From Ureaplasma parvum serovar 3 str. ATCC 27815 (GTDB lineage Bacteria > Bacillota_I > Bacilli_A > Mycoplasmatales > Mycoplasmoidaceae): a stretch of DNA of 32,000 nucleotides. The notes beneath the pieces were generated by a model. That model was not told the DNA's origin and searched no databases. It saw only the letters and a list, made by a program, of their open reading frames with translations. Shown here in pieces: positions 26,669 to 32,000 of the stretch. The stretch is from the NCBI RefSeq assembly GCF_000019345.1, contig NC_010503.1:600001-632000 (forward strand). The letters are read 5' to 3'. A program made the translations under genes and the position numbers. The first letter of the stretch is position 1, and the number at the start of each line of letters is the position of its first letter.

Positions 26669-28972
26669 TTATTTATTAAAAAAATTTTGGGTTCTTGATG
26701 TTAATCTTGTTTCATGACGATATTCATCAATATCATAATCAGCACTATTGATTTCATTAATAATATTAGCAAACTGTTCATTTGTAATTTTTGCTGTTTG
26801 CAATCGTAGTGGCAAATTATCAAAATTGCGAATTAATAACATATCCCCAAAACCAACCAAATTATTACATCAATTACGATCAGTTAATAAAATACTTTCA
26901 TACGGATTATTTAATTTTAATACAATGGTATAATCAAATACATTTTTAAAAGAAACTGTGCTTTCGTTAGTTATATTTGATGAAATTATTAAAACGATTC
27001 CGTGTTTTTTAGCAATATTTGCTATATTGCGAATTAAGGTATCAAAACGTGTATTAAATTGACTACTTACTATCTCAACATATTCAGAAATAATGATTAA
27101 TTTTTTAGGTAATTTTTGATTTTGATTTTTTAGATTATATTCATCTAAATTATCAACATTATTATCAGCAAATAATGTATTTTGCTTGTTAATATCATTC
27201 ATAATTTCCCTTAATAAATTAATAACATTTTCAAAATCATCATGATCAACGCTTTTTTTTGTATGCTTTAATTTAGCAAATTCTTTTAATGATTTTGAAC
27301 CATTATTAATAATAAATAATTCTAATTCATTAGGTGATTTAGTATATAAAGCACTAATAATAATGTTAGAAATTAACATTGATTTTCCAGAAAATTGTTG
27401 ACTACCATGAATTAAAATACTTCCAGCTTGTGTATCTTCTAATCAAACTACTTTTCTTTCTTTTAATTTTCCAATTCCTAAACATAATTTATCATTGTAT
27501 TCTAAATTAGTTAGAATATCTTTAATATTAATTTGAGGATTTAAATCTTTGACTTTGGCTTGAATGATTAAAAAGTCATTGTCATTATAAATATTGATTT
27601 CATAATCATCTGTATCATTAACTGCTTGTTTCATTAAATTTAAAAAATTTTTTAAAAAATTGTTTAATGATGAACGAGTAAACTGATAAACAATTTCAAC
27701 ATTTGAAAAATAAGGATTAATTGCATTAAAATGATATTCTAATTGGTTATTTTCTAAAAATTTATCGATAATTAATTTTAAATTTTCACCTTTTGATTTA
27801 AGTTCATGCAAATAATCTTGACTTTTGCCATCTATAATATCAATTCGTGGATAAAAATTGTACTTGTTATTCTTGATTGTTGATGGATTTTCTCGGAATT
27901 GGTTAATATCATTAACAATTGGTTCTAAAATAGTGGTTTTTAGTTTATCATTTTTTGTGATACATGAAGAATTAGTTTGCCGATCATTAAAATTTTTAAT
28001 TTGTAAATTTTGTTCTTGGATAACTTCTTTTTGCTCCAATTGTTTATCAATATTGTGGTGATCTTCACCAAGTTTTTCTTCGAAAAAGTTTTGTTCACTT
28101 AATTGATAATCTTTTTTGTGATAGTTATTGATATTAGTGATTATTTTATTAACTAATCATTTTTTGAATTTTAATCCTAAATGACTTTTCGTGCCAAAAG
28201 TGATTAGAATAAAAGAAATAAGAACTAAAACCATAAACATAATTACAATAGTAAAAATTCAAGCATTAGCACGATATAAATCTAAATTAGCATATCCTAT
28301 AATTCCACCATAAGCAAAAACACTAGTATAATAATAATGTTTTTCATCAATCGCTTTTAAAAATTCTTGCGATCAGCTATAAGCTCACCACTCACATAAA
28401 TGTAATTTTTTTGAGTGTAAATTTACTAAACTAATATATTCGAAATTATCTTTATGTAAATTAAGTATTTCCTTATTAATCATTTGTTGATTTGTATTAA
28501 TAATGAATTTATAAGTTAATGAATTTGTGATAATTCCATAACCAACTGCACCAATAATTAAAGCAAATAAAATTAGTGTAATAATATAAAAAACAATCAT
28601 TCATTTACTAAATAAACGCCTTCTGACTTTTTTAATATAAAAAACAATTAAAAATAATAATAAAATTACATAAACATAGTATTTAACTCATCCAAAAAAA
28701 AATTCTAAAACATTGTCTAAAATCGCTCCTGTATATGGGGCTTTTAAAAAAGCAAGTATTAAAATTAAAAAGCTTAATATAAAAAAACAAATTCCAATAA
28801 GCTTTTTTTTATTAAAAAAATAATTTTTTTGAACTTTGAATTTTTTTGTCTTTAAATTGCTTTTTTCTTGTTCTTTTCCGTTTGATTCTGTTTTTTGTGC
28901 ATCTAGTTGATTGTCATAACTATAAAAACTAATTGTTTCCTTATTTAATGTGTTTTTATTGTCACTAACCAT
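26669..28972 (-). CDS. FtsK/SpoIIIE-family membrane protein (767 aa) with non-canonical ATPase motifs and no gamma domain.
   Basis: Five track ORFs (26669-26860, 26870-27379, 27443-28039, 28385-28600, 28688-28972) share one frame. Hydrophobic segments lie in the N-terminal third. The motor region aligns by eye to SpoIIIE: ILIHGSQQFSGKS (P-loop), LPKKLIIISEYVEIV (Walker B position), GIVLIISSNITN (TQRP position) and VGFGDMLL (GRGDML). Confidence 0.8.
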
Positions 28973-28988
28973 ACATTACCTCTAAAAA

Positions 28989-30659
28989 TTATTTTGTTTT
29001 ATAACAGTCAACTACTGTTGGCAAAACTAATGGACGCTTATTAAATTTCTTTTCAAATAATTTAGTTAATAAACGTTTTAAATTTGCTTTGGTATCTTTT
29101 AGTATTAAGCGTTTACGTTCATCATAAACTAAACATTCACCCATACGTTTTTTAAATGTTTCTTCAATTTCTTTAATTTGAGCGTCATTATTAACAACTC
29201 CACAATAATCAAATTCAACATAATTAAATAGTTTTTGGAATTGTTTATCAAAAATAACAATTAAATTAATAACACCATTCTCGCCCATTTGTGATCGTTC
29301 AAATAAAATATTAGCACCAACATCAAGTGCATCAAAAGATGAAATATATTTATCTTCTAACTCAATAATTTGGGGTTTAGGATTTAAAACTTTATCTTCT
29401 ATAGTGAATAATTCGCCATTAGAAACACTAATAATCTGATCACTTTTAATTCAAGATGTTGTAACTGTAGAACTAAATTTAACCTCAGTTTTATATAATC
29501 CATTAATTGGAATTAAAAATTTTGGTTGTAAAAAATTAATTAGATGTTTTAAATCTTCATCAGATTGTGTCATTGGTAAAACTGTTTTAGGTAATGCTTT
29601 ATAAGGAATGTCTAAACGACCTACTTCATCACTTAGTTCAGCTGCTAACATTTCAAAACCTGGTGTAATAACAACGCCTAATATTAGTTGATCATCAGAA
29701 GACAAATTAACATATTTATCTTCGTTATGTAGAATTTTATTTAATTTTGAAAAAAGAGTATCTTGATTTTCAATTACCACAATAATTGCATTTTTTGAAT
29801 TATTAATTTCAGAAACCGGTAAAGAAATTAAATTTTTACTATTAAATAATTTCAATTTCAATACACCAATAAAAGTGTTAATGAAGTTATTACTATAAAC
29901 AATAAAGGGGCGATTTTGTTGTTTTGCAATTGTTGCCAAAGTAAAAATACTATATGCATCATTGCTATAACAACCAACAATTAAACGATTTTTAGTATTT
30001 TGCAATGCAGCTTCATAAAAAGCCTTATTTTTATGATTGGGAGCAGTAAAATAAGGATTTCCTGCTTGACCCATTCCTACAATCAAAGCTAGAGTATTAT
30101 TTTTAGTAATGTTATTTAAAAGATTAATTTGTGAATCAAAGGTTTTATTTTTATCATTTGAAATAATAAACTCATCAACATAAACAATTGCTCCATCGCT
30201 TGTTTTTAATACAAATCCATATGAATGAGGCATTGAGTTTGAAACTTTAAAAGATGTAACATAAATTGATCCAATTTTCTTATCTGAAATTGGATCTAGC
30301 TCAATAATATTAGGTTCAATTTTTTTATTGTTTACTTTTTGTTCAAAAATTTTTTTAATAACAATTGCTCCTATTGGGCTTGTGTAAATTGGGATTTTAT
30401 AACCTACTTGTCCTAGTAATAATTTAATTCCCATAACATTATTAAATGTTGGTGTACCAATAAAAATTCCCTTAACGCGTTTTGCGTTTTTTTCTAAATA
30501 AGAATAATCACAAACAATCATATTTACGCCAAAAACATCACTTGTTGGAATTTTCGCACCAGCATTAAAAATAAAAATATCATCGTTCACTTCAAGAACA
30601 AAGCAAGATTTTCCTCTTTCATCTTGTCCTCCTAACGATAAAAAATTAATTTTAGCCAT
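28989..30659 (-). CDS. RNase J-family protein (556 aa) lacking the HxHxDH metal-binding motif.
   Basis: Track ORFs 28989-29288 and 29451-30659 are in the same frame. An AAGGAG Shine-Dalgarno sequence precedes the ATG at 30659. CDYSYLEKNAKRVKGIFIGTPTFNNVMGIKLLLGQV aligns with B. subtilis RNase J1 [35 protein letters not shown]. The length matches RNase J. Confidence 0.8.
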
Positions 30660-30798
30660 AAAGCTCCTTTATATATAAAAATGTAAAATAATATGTGTTT
30701 TAATCCTTAAATTATACTCTATTATATCTTATCGATATAAATATAAATTTTTTAAAAGAACATTATTTTCAACTAATTATTTAAAAGAGGTGATTATA

Positions 30799-32000
30799 AT
30801 GAAAATTGTTCAACAAACTTCTGATAATGAATGTGGTGTGTGTGTTATTAACATGTTAGCAAATTATTATCATAATAAAACAATTGATAAAAACATCATT
30901 CTTCAAAAAGCAAATTTAACAAAAAATGGTTTGAGTTTGCAAGAACTTGAAAACTTAGCAAATGAATTTAATTTAGATGCACAATCATTTGAATGTAGTT
31001 TTGAGGAGTTAATTGATGAAAAAATCAATGACTATTTTATAGCTTTAATTAACAAAAACGGTTTGAATCATTTTGTTATTGTTAAAAATTATAACAAAAA
31101 TTTTTTTCGTATTTATGATCCAGAAAATAAAATATATGAATTAAATAATGAAGAATTTAAAAAAATATTTTTAAATATAATTGTGCGTGTTTCTAAAAAT
31201 CATCAAATTTTTGACCTTCCCATATTTAAAGAATCTTATTTAAAAAATATTAAACTCTCATCGTTAATTATCATATTATTTATAGAGTTATTAAATATTC
31301 CTTTAAATATTTTTTTAAGTAAAATTGTAAACTTACTAATAGATTTAGTTTTAATTGACACACAAATTAAAAACTTAACATACTTATTTATTGTTTTTAG
31401 TTTATTTTATATTAGTAATGCTTTCAAAGATTTACTAATTACTATATACATAAATAAAATTAGTAATAATATTTTTTCTAATATTAATAATAAAATAGTT
31501 AATAATTTAGCTAATAAATCAATTATTTTTTTTAATAAAACAAATTTAGGTGAATTAAGCTCGATTCAGATTCATTTGAATAATATAATTCATTTTCTAT
31601 TAGTTAGTCGTATAAAATTATTAGTTAATACTTTATTTGCAATTTGTATTATTTGTTTATTAGGTTTACAAAATTGATCTTTATTATTAATAAGTTTAGG
31701 GTTTAGTTTGTTAAATTTTATAATAGGATTGATTAATTGAAAATATTTTAAAATCCACAGTTTAAAAATAATTAATATTGAAAACTCATTATTTATTAAA
31801 TATCAAAATTTTATTAAATTAATTAATCTCGAATACAATATCGATAAATATAATAACTATATTAATAGTTATAAAAAGCAATTTGATGAATTAATAATTT
31901 TTAAAAATAAAATTACTATTTTTAAATCGAATGTAAATTTTTATTTATCAATTATTAATAATATTGGTTTATTGATTTTATTAACTTATCTAATCATTAA
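30799..32000 (+). CDS. ABC exporter with an N-terminal C39 cysteine-peptidase domain (PCAT). The 3' end lies beyond the window.
   Basis: The ATG at 30799 follows AAGAGGTGA. MKIVQQTSDNECGVCVINMLANYY carries the Gln and Cys of the C39 active site. NHFVIV (His) and IYDP (Asp) lie further on. Hydrophobic TM helices start around residue 160. The frame stays open through TGA codons to the window end. Confidence 0.8.

What the first reader, a model, noticed from the sequence alone, without database searches (positions are those of the whole stretch)
28989..30659. RNase J paralog that has lost the entire HxHxDH zinc-binding motif
Length (556 aa), domain order and many local matches identify the RNase J family. 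Examples are DYSYLEKNAKRVKGIFI versus [17 protein letters not shown] in B. subtilis J1, and ILFERSQMGENGVINLIV versus VLRDRRQLSEDG. The catalytic [10 protein letters not shown], however, is replaced by GTPTFNNVMG. The next metal-ligand region, FRTTHSIPDS...GDFKFD, reads FKVSNSMPHS...VDEFIISND. All four motif-II ligands are gone, so nuclease chemistry of the metallo-beta-lactamase type is unlikely. The protein could be a structural partner of an active RNase J (analogous to J2 with J1) or be repurposed.
Basis: partly seen in the sequence, partly recalled or inferred. Interest (0 to 1): 0.6.

Follow-up and report, generated by a model that had tools for sequence, protein, structure and literature searches.

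The report
Catalytically dead RNase J2 of Ureaplasma
This Ureaplasma gene is the RNase J2 counterpart, which keeps the whole RNase J fold but has lost nearly all metal-binding residues; it is strongly conserved and probably helps the intact RNase J1, and inactive mycoplasma copies of this kind were already noted in the literature.

Summary
ORF 28989-30659(-) encodes a 556-aa protein (one TGA=Trp) that matches the RNase J family model end to end. Its predicted fold superposes on RNase J1/J2 structures (TM 0.88). HxHxDH reads TPTFNN, and the ligands of motifs I, III, B and C are also replaced; only an acidic residue at motif IV remains.

It is not an isolated or decaying variant.
- A canonical RNase J1 with every motif lies about 80 kb away in the same 751,679-bp genome.
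- A 75-protein tree places the window protein inside the RNase J2 (RnjB) clade of Bacilli. An AU test rejects a mollicute-specific duplication.
- The rnjB-ftsK gene order is shared with non-mollicute Bacilli.
- dN/dS against U. urealyticum is 0.046.
- All 149 Mycoplasmatales genomes scored have a match, and all but three gave two. 26 of 34 J2-like sequences examined keep none of the four motif II ligands.

Best reading: a non-catalytic RnjB that partners RNase J1. This matches S. aureus and B. subtilis, where the J2 active site is dispensable.

Novelty is low. Inactive beta-CASP paralogs in M. genitalium, M. pneumoniae and M. gallisepticum were noted from 2002 to 2011. What is added here is the link to J2, the order-wide extent and the selection measure.

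The parts
28989..30659 (-). rnjB-like gene: 556-aa RNase J2 ortholog with a degenerate active site (stop codon included)
   Evidence: ORF under table 4. TIGR00649 388 bits end to end. AF2 pLDDT 88.8 and Foldseek TM 0.88 to RNase J1/J2 structures. Placed in the J2 clade. dN/dS 0.046.
30664..30669 (-). Shine-Dalgarno AAGGAG, 4 nt before the ATG at 30659
   Evidence: Read directly from the sequence. The MAKI(N/K)F N-terminus is shared with homologs, which supports this start.
30558..30569 (-). Motif I remnant FNAG (residues 31-34): the ligand Asp is Asn32
   Evidence: Aligned to IDAG of the own J1.
30429..30458 (-). Motif II remnant GTPTFNNVMG (residues 68-77): His, His, Asp, His replaced by Thr69, Thr71, Asn73, Asn74
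   Evidence: Identical in U. urealyticum.
30222..30242 (-). Motif III remnant SNSMPHS (residues 140-146): the ligand His is Asn141; Pro144 and Ser146 of the family signature are kept
30159..30179 (-). Motif IV region VDEFIIS (residues 161-167): acidic Glu163 kept at the Asp position; Asp162 invariant in the subfamily
29652..29993 (-). beta-CASP domain (residues 223-336)
   Evidence: Pfam PF22505 E=4.3e-5, below its gathering score. The fold is confirmed by the model.
29562..29585 (-). Motif B remnant TVLPMTQS (residues 359-366): both His of HxSGH are lost
29493..29510 (-). Motif C remnant PINGLY (residues 384-389): His is Asn386
   Evidence: This His is also missing in the J2 of other Bacilli.
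29451..29453 (-). TGA codon read as Trp403 (Mycoplasma/Spiroplasma code)
29007..29306 (-). RNase J C-terminal (dimerisation) domain, residues 452-551, with the basic pair K541-R542 before Pro543
   Evidence: Pfam PF17770 E=3.2e-9, above its cut-off. dN/dS 0.048 for residues 446-556. In the 3zq4 alignment K541-R542 aligns to B. subtilis R544-R545; Asp446, just upstream of the domain, aligns to D449.
26669..28972 (-). Downstream FtsK/SpoIIIE-family gene, 16 nt after the rnjB stop, with its own GAGG site; probably co-transcribed
   Evidence: No terminator-like site was found between the two genes. Pfam FtsK_SpoIIIE in the U. urealyticum ortholog. The gene order recurs in other Mollicutes and Bacilli.

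Best explanation
The gene encodes the Ureaplasma ortholog of RNase J2 (RnjB). It keeps the complete three-domain RNase J architecture: a metallo-beta-lactamase core, a beta-CASP insert and the C-terminal dimerisation domain. It has lost the di-metal centre, so it cannot cleave RNA by metallo-beta-lactamase chemistry. It most likely acts as a non-catalytic subunit that pairs through the conserved C-terminal domain with the fully intact RNase J1 (RnjA, G000:C1:709974-711608, outside the window). In that role it would stabilise J1 and/or tune its substrate choice, and J1 would supply the only active site. Shown here: family, fold, ligand loss, orthology to J2, co-occurrence with J1, conservation and purifying selection. 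Inferred: absence of any nuclease activity, the physical J1-J2 complex, and the cofactor role. The loss is not specific to Ureaplasma. J2 of other Bacilli is already partly degenerate, and the Mycoplasmatales J2 clade carries the erosion nearly to completion, apparently in several lineages independently.
For: - Family and fold: TIGR00649 E=5.6e-116 end to end; RNase_J_C domain above its cut-off; AF2 pLDDT 88.8; Foldseek TM 0.88 to a deposited RNJ2-RNJ1 model and 0.87 to 3zq4.
- Ligands: 9 of the 10 tabulated ligand positions are replaced.
- Partner present: the canonical J1 in the same genome has [29 protein letters not shown] and IHGEYK.
- Orthology: J1 clade support 100, J2 clade 99, Mycoplasmatales J2 clade 99, nested in the J2 of other Bacilli. 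AU test against a mollicute-only duplication: delta-lnL 241, p=3e-52. The best sequence match in the PDB is S. epidermidis J2, 184 bits, against 132 bits for B. subtilis J1. rnjB-ftsK adjacency is seen in Ureaplasma, Williamsoniiplasma and Spiroplasma and in 4 of 8 other Bacilli genomes.
- Selection: dN/dS 0.046 at dS 0.56 against U. urealyticum. This is as low as pepA (0.059) and lower than ftsK (0.217). The degenerate N-terminal core alone gives 0.036.
- Spread: all 149 Mycoplasmatales genomes scored have a match, and all but three gave two. The three single-match genomes yielded a weak second match with the family model; read out in one of them (G126), it is an intact 532-aa ORF.
- Precedent: the S. 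aureus J2 active-site mutant has no phenotype while the deletion does (PMC3937233). B. subtilis J2 H76A does not change target half-lives while the deletion does (bioRxiv 10.64898/2026.05.27.728192).
Against: - No direct evidence of a J1-J2 complex or of inactivity in any Mollicute was obtained.
- The residue in Ureaplasma J1 that matches B. subtilis D449 is Ser (alignment). That preprint predicts a J2 R544 to J1 D449 salt bridge, so it is not conserved on the J1 side.
- Former active-site positions are fixed to new polar residues in the subfamily (Asn32, Asn74, Asp162, Glu/Asp163). This could mean a structural hydrogen-bond network, or a new ligand site.
- Overexpression of M. pneumoniae J2 gave no transcriptional effect (PMC6721554), which is uninformative either way.
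- Expression in Ureaplasma could not be checked because the run finder was unavailable.
Confidence: 0.72

Rival explanations
1. RnjB has been repurposed for a function independent of RNase J1. It could act as an RNA- or nucleic-acid-binding scaffold or chaperone, perhaps connected with the FtsK/SpoIIIE translocase encoded immediately downstream.
For: The rnjB-ftsK gene order is conserved from non-mollicute Bacilli to Ureaplasma. The two genes are 16 nt apart with no terminator between them. Purifying selection is strong even on the dead core. Subfamily-specific invariant motifs such as GGQDE, FTxPNHK and RPFxIYS are absent from J1.
Against: Most other Mollicute loci examined show no ftsK within the 4-kb flank fetched, yet keep rnjB, so the linkage is not obligatory. 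J1 co-occurs with J2 in essentially every genome searched. Where J2 has been studied it works through J1 (PMC3937233; bioRxiv 10.64898/2026.05.27.728192).
Confidence: 0.15
2. The protein is still a nuclease or another hydrolase that uses a remodelled site, for example Mg2+ or Mn2+ held by Asp162, Glu163, Asn32 and Asn74.
For: An acidic residue survives at motif IV, and neighbouring Asp162 is invariant in the subfamily. Asn32 and Asn74 replace ligands and are themselves invariant among the closer relatives. dN/dS of the core is very low.
Against: All six tabulated His ligand positions (three in motif II, one each in III and C, two in B) and two of the three Asp ligands are gone. The replacements differ between Mollicute families (TPTFNN, YPSQSN, NSASYN, DVHNES, KPSDDA), which does not fit a conserved new catalytic site. 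I know of no active metallo-beta-lactamase-fold nuclease that lacks these histidines.
Confidence: 0.08
3. The gene is a decaying, strain-specific pseudogene remnant of an RNase J duplication.
For: Catalytic motifs are lost. The score is just under the curated family cut-off (388 against 400 bits). There is no Lactamase_B Pfam hit.
Against: The frame is intact, with a strong ribosome-binding site. dN/dS is 0.046. Intact orthologs occur across the order. The predicted fold is confident.
Confidence: 0.01

Closest known systems
RNase J2 (RnjB) of Bacillota, e.g. S. epidermidis 6K6W, S. aureus and B. subtilis RnjB
   Same: Orthologous by tree and by synteny. Same three-domain fold. Co-exists with a canonical J1. 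Motif C His is already missing and motif II already imperfect (HGHEHA in Staphylococcus, HGHDEN in B. subtilis). The active site is dispensable in vivo (PMC3937233; bioRxiv 10.64898/2026.05.27.728192).
   Different: The J2 of Bacillota sampled here keeps 2-4 of the four motif II ligands. The characterised enzymes keep the motif III His and retain weak in vitro activity. The Ureaplasma protein keeps none of the motif II ligands and lacks the ligands of motifs I, III and B as well.
'Inactive' beta-CASP paralogs of mycoplasmas (M. genitalium MG139/MG423 pair, M. pneumoniae pair, M. gallisepticum NP_852865.1)
   Same: Same protein family and the same phenomenon. The pairs are listed as active:inactive in PMC8501993 (citing Callebaut et al. 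2002). PMC3155973 states that most family-typical residues are not conserved. M. gallisepticum-group homologs are about 40% identical to the window protein and are degenerate at the same columns.
   Different: Those reports did not place the inactive copy as the RnjB ortholog. They also did not measure selection or survey the order. The Ureaplasma member is not named in the passages I could read.
CPSF100 with CPSF73, and IntS9 with IntS11 (eukaryotic beta-CASP pairs)
   Same: A catalytically dead beta-CASP paralog that heterodimerises with an active one through C-terminal domains. Weak fold matches to IntS11 and CPSF73 (TM 0.53-0.57).
   Different: An independent duplication in another domain of life with a different C-terminal domain. 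This is an analogy of mechanism, not membership.
RNase J1 (RnjA), e.g. B. subtilis 3ZQ4 and the own-genome paralog P0002
   Same: Same fold and domain order; 23% identity to the own J1.
   Different: J1 has all ten ligand positions intact in all 26 sampled sequences. It forms a separate clade.

Membership tests
RNase J family (TIGR00649, beta-CASP metallo-beta-lactamase ribonucleases) | Three-domain architecture: metallo-beta-lactamase core, beta-CASP insert and RNase J C-terminal domain | tested here: met
   TIGR00649 aligned over positions 1-545 of 546. PF17770 is above its cut-off; PF22505 is weak. AF2 model with Foldseek TM 0.85-0.89 to RNase J structures.
RNase J family (TIGR00649, beta-CASP metallo-beta-lactamase ribonucleases) | Score above the curated family cut-off | tested here: not met
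   388.1 bits against a cut-off of 400. The own-genome J1 scores 460.
RNase J family (TIGR00649, beta-CASP metallo-beta-lactamase ribonucleases) | Motif II HxHxDH metal ligands | tested here: not met
   TPTFNN sits at those columns in three independent alignments.
RNase J family (TIGR00649, beta-CASP metallo-beta-lactamase ribonucleases) | Motif I Asp, motif III His, motif IV Asp, beta-CASP motif B His and motif C His | tested here: not met
   Asn32, Asn141, LPMTQ and Asn386 replace them. Only the acidic motif IV position survives, as Glu163.
RNase J family (TIGR00649, beta-CASP metallo-beta-lactamase ribonucleases) | 5'-3' exo- and endoribonuclease activity | not testable with these tools
   Needs a biochemical assay.
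RNase J2 (RnjB) orthologous group | Falls in the J2 clade, separate from J1, in a tree rooted outside Bacillota | tested here: met
   J2 clade SH-aLRT 99 and J1 clade 100, outgroup Dictyoglomaceae RNase J. The AU test rejects joining Mollicute J1 and J2 (p=3e-52). Caveat: long branches, and only a 'quick' tree search.
RNase J2 (RnjB) orthologous group | Co-occurs with a canonical RNase J1 in the same genome | tested here: met
   P0002 at G000:C1:709974-711608 has every motif. Two paralogs were found in nearly all Bacilli and Mycoplasmatales genomes searched.
RNase J2 (RnjB) orthologous group | Conserved neighbourhood: rnjB followed by an ftsK/spoIIIE-family gene | tested here: met
   Seen in Ureaplasma loci, Williamsoniiplasma and Spiroplasma and in 4 of 8 complete non-mollicute Bacilli genomes. 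Not universal.
RNase J2 (RnjB) orthologous group | Forms a heteromer with RNase J1 | not testable with these tools
   No multimer prediction or interaction data are available here. The C-terminal domain is conserved.
Pseudoenzyme partner of an active paralog (works like CPSF100 or IntS9) | Catalytic residues lost while the fold and purifying selection are retained | tested here: met
   Ligand table, confident fold, dN/dS 0.046.

The most novel reading that the evidence does not exclude
The metal-free RnjB of Mollicutes has a function of its own beyond propping up RNase J1. It might bind RNA or DNA without cutting, and act together with the FtsK/SpoIIIE-family protein encoded in the same conserved operon. 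That would explain why even genomes of about 400 kb keep an intact copy, and why the minimal-cell design retains rnjB.
Probability: 0.1. Interest if true: 0.6.

Novelty: new member of a known kind. Interest (0 to 1): 0.3.

Why it matters
RNase J1 and J2 are among the few ribonucleases reported in all Mollicutes (PMC4014445). Both are kept in the minimal cell JCVI-syn3.0, where the presence of RnjB was called unexpected (PMC4993169). Papers on Mollicute RNA decay describe J2 as a 5'-3' exonuclease (PMC4014445; bioRxiv 10.64898/2026.09.08.750226; bioRxiv 10.64898/2026.10.06.757197). The ligand tables here show it cannot be one by the known chemistry.

In effect, nature has repeated across a whole order the active-site knock-out that was made in S. 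aureus and B. subtilis, and has kept the protein under tight selection. That supports the view of J2 as a non-catalytic cofactor or specificity factor. It also makes Mollicutes a clean system for finding out what that non-catalytic function is. Annotation as 'ribonuclease J' without qualification is misleading.

Tried and rejected
- Alternative alignment registers that might restore His or Asp ligands: none appeared in the HMMER-to-PDB, MAFFT or BLASTP alignments.
- Pseudogene or strain-specific decay: rejected by dN/dS and by order-wide intact orthologs.
- Mollicute-specific duplication of J1: rejected by the tree and the AU test.
- The search for related loci with the broad alignment A2 failed for lack of a conserved stretch. 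The narrower A3 worked.
- U. urealyticum J1 could not be reached through the L165 record, so dN/dS of J1 could not be compared. Neighbouring genes served as yardsticks instead.
- Callebaut et al. 2002 is not held. Its claim is cited only through PMC8501993 and PMC3155973.
- No essentiality data for syn3A rnjB were found in the library.
- Model coordinates are not exposed, so conserved surfaces and the interface could not be mapped in 3D.
- Promoter scan: fewer consensus hits than in shuffles (36 against 41.7), so no promoter is claimed.

Full report
**What is there**

The window comes from a single-contig, 751,679-bp genome with about 24% G+C that reads TGA as Trp. The closest named protein is RNase J of Ureaplasma urealyticum, at 94% identity. 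An earlier follow-up in this scan calls the genome Ureaplasma parvum.

Under table 4 the ORF 28989..30659(-) encodes 556 aa with one TGA codon, Trp403. An AAGGAG ribosome-binding site lies 4 nt upstream of the ATG. An FtsK/SpoIIIE-family gene starts 16 nt after the stop, on the same strand. No terminator-like site was found between the two genes.

**Family and fold**

- The protein matches the RNase J family model TIGR00649 over positions 1-545 of 546 (E=5.6e-116). The score, 388 bits, is just under the curated cut-off of 400.
- Pfam finds the RNase J C-terminal domain (3.2e-9) and, weakly, the beta-CASP domain. It finds no Lactamase_B domain.
- An AlphaFold2 model built on 39 homologs is confident (pLDDT 88.8, pTM 0.79).
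- The model superposes on RNase J structures over its full length. TM is 0.88 to a deposited RNJ2-RNJ1 model, 0.87 to B. subtilis J1 (3ZQ4) and 0.9 (target-normalised) to S. epidermidis J2.
- By sequence, the best solved relative is S. epidermidis RNase J2 at 184 bits, ahead of B. subtilis J1 at 132 bits.

**The ligands**

Three independent alignments agree on the register. The same genome's canonical paralog serves as reference, and it aligns letter for letter with B. subtilis J1 at the motifs.

| Motif | Canonical paralog | Window protein |
|---|---|---|
| I | IDAG | FNAG (Asn32) |
| II | [10 protein letters not shown] | GTPTFNNVMG |
| III | CHSIPDS | SNSMPHS (Asn141) |
| IV | GDFRFD | DEFIIS (Glu163 kept) |
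| B | HASGHA | LPMTQ |
| C | PIHGEY | PINGLY (Asn386) |

Nine of the ten ligand positions tabulated are replaced.

**A canonical partner exists**

The family model finds exactly two genes in the genome. One is this gene. The other lies at G000:C1:709974-711608(-), scores 460 bits and carries every motif. The two proteins are 23% identical.

**It is RnjB, not a new duplicate**

I built a tree of 75 proteins:
- 26 J1-type sequences;
- 14 J2-type sequences from non-mollicute Bacilli;
- 34 J2-type sequences from Mycoplasmatales and allies;
- a Dictyoglomaceae RNase J as outgroup.

The method was IQ-TREE with LG+C20 PMSF and the 'quick' search. J1 forms one clade (support 100) and J2 another (99). 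All Mollicute degenerate proteins form one clade (99) nested inside the J2 of other Bacilli.

Forcing Mollicute J1 and J2 together costs 241 log-likelihood units (AU p=3e-52). Long branches could bias both results, so I looked for independent evidence in gene order:
- An ftsK/spoIIIE-family gene follows rnjB in every Ureaplasma locus with enough flank, in Williamsoniiplasma and in two Spiroplasma.
- The same order holds in 4 of 8 complete non-mollicute Bacilli genomes examined.

**It is conserved and constrained**

All 149 Mycoplasmatales genomes scored have a match to the protein, and all but three gave two matches. In a sample of the whole class, 120 of 121 genomes have a match, most of them two. 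The three single-match genomes belong to one family of very small genomes. There the family model finds a weak second match. In the one I read out (G126, about 400 kb) it is an intact 532-aa ORF, extremely diverged.

| Group | Motif II ligands kept |
|---|---|
| J1 | all four, in 26 of 26 sequences |
| J2 of other Bacilli | 2-4 of four |
| Mollicute J2 | none in 26 of 34 sequences; never more than two |

At least five state changes on the tree suggest stepwise erosion that is partly independent between lineages.

The named species checked all lack the motif II histidines, each lineage with its own replacement string. They include U. diversum, U. canigenitalium, U. ceti, M. testudinis, M. amphoriforme, Mycoplasmoides alvi, M. 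imitans, Malacoplasma muris, Mesoplasma, Williamsoniiplasma, M. yeatsii and Spiroplasma.

Among 171 full-length representatives at 50% identity, 15 keep all ten ligands and 87 keep two or fewer.

Against U. urealyticum, dN/dS values are:

| Gene or region | dN/dS |
|---|---|
| rnjB, whole gene | 0.046 (dS 0.56) |
| rnjB, degenerate N-terminal core | 0.036 |
| pepA | 0.059 |
| ABC exporter | 0.128 |
| ftsK | 0.217 |

**Mechanism**

Without the His/Asp di-metal site the protein cannot perform metallo-beta-lactamase-type phosphodiester hydrolysis. This step is inferred from established knowledge of the family.

In S. aureus an active-site mutant of J2 has no phenotype while the deletion does. The authors proposed a structural role in a J1+J2 complex (PMC3937233). 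In B. subtilis, J2 has HGHDEN, and the H76A mutant leaves target half-lives unchanged while the deletion stabilises about a third of RNAs. The authors call J2 a specificity factor for J1 (bioRxiv 10.64898/2026.05.27.728192).

The Ureaplasma protein keeps the C-terminal domain under tight selection. Asp446 aligns to B. subtilis D449, and the basic pair K541-R542 aligns to R544-R545. In the preprint those residues are interface contacts.

The most likely reading is therefore a non-catalytic RnjB subunit of a J1-J2 complex (confidence about 0.7). Three points count against over-confidence:
- The J1-side counterpart of D449 is Ser in Ureaplasma.
- Several former ligand positions are fixed to new polar residues within the closer relatives (Asn32, Asn74, Asp162).
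- No interaction or expression data could be obtained.

Rivals are a J1-independent function, possibly tied to FtsK (0.15), a remodelled catalytic site (0.08) and pseudogene decay (0.01).

**Comparison with the literature**

The phenomenon is already on record:
- A 2021 review lists active:inactive beta-CASP pairs in M. genitalium (MG139/MG423), M. pneumoniae and others, citing Callebaut et al. 2002 (PMC8501993). I could not read the primary paper.
- A 2011 paper notes that the M. gallisepticum paralog lacks most family-typical residues and may be an inactive form (PMC3155973).

Other papers still treat Mollicute J2 as an active exonuclease. They are the Mollicute translation-apparatus survey (PMC4014445), a syn1.0/syn3A transcriptome preprint and an M. 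pneumoniae proteome preprint.

- identification of the dead copy as the RnjB ortholog;
- the order-wide ligand census;
- the synteny;
- the selection measure.

**Verdict**

This is a new member of a known kind, of modest interest (0.3). It is of practical use for annotation, and Mollicutes offer a natural active-site knock-out for studying the non-catalytic role of RNase J2.

Noticed in passing
window 26669-28972 (-): The FtsK/SpoIIIE-family gene just downstream evolves much faster than its neighbours: 74% aa identity and dN/dS 0.217 against U. urealyticum, compared with 0.05-0.06 for rnjB and pepA. Another first-stage note (e1-2533080) reports eroded Walker motifs. I did not examine the motifs.
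   Followed up: partly
L166-L169 (G014, G049, G088, G111) and L148, L156, L157: An ftsK/spoIIIE-family gene lies within about 1-1.2 kb downstream of rnjB, on the same strand, in 4 of 8 complete non-mollicute Bacilli genomes and in Williamsoniiplasma and Spiroplasma. This looks like an old linkage with no stated functional reason.
   Followed up: partly
L179 721-2319 (-) (G126, genome of about 400 kb); also L180-L183: In one family of very small Mycoplasmatales genomes (0.2-0.7 Mb) the J2-like gene is so diverged that the family model gives only 22-55 bits. In G126 it is still an intact 532-aa ORF, with LNNSSLKNSGS at motif II. J1 in the same genomes scores above 450 bits.
   Followed up: partly
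L078 (G129), L011 (G046), L077 (G137): A few lineages inside the Mollicute J2 clade still have remnants of motif II (SHGHQEN, SNGHPEN, THAKKN). Complete loss therefore probably happened more than once rather than in a single ancestor.
   Followed up: partly
window 30790-32000 (+): A divergently transcribed peptidase-C39 ABC exporter lies upstream of rnjB (Pfam Peptidase_C39 and ABC_tran in the U. urealyticum ortholog). dN/dS is 0.128. Other first-stage notes already flag it.
   Followed up: no
L001 1378-3165 (-) (own RNase J1, outside the window): The canonical J1 carries an extra tail of about 40 residues, acidic at its end, beyond the RNase J C-terminal domain. The tail is absent from B. subtilis J1. 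At the position of B. subtilis D449 this J1 has Ser.
   Followed up: no
literature: PMC8501993 and PMC3155973 give the M. pneumoniae pair as MPN280/MPN261, whereas PMC6721554 names RNase J2 as MPN621. The former looks like a digit transposition carried over from the source.
   Followed up: no
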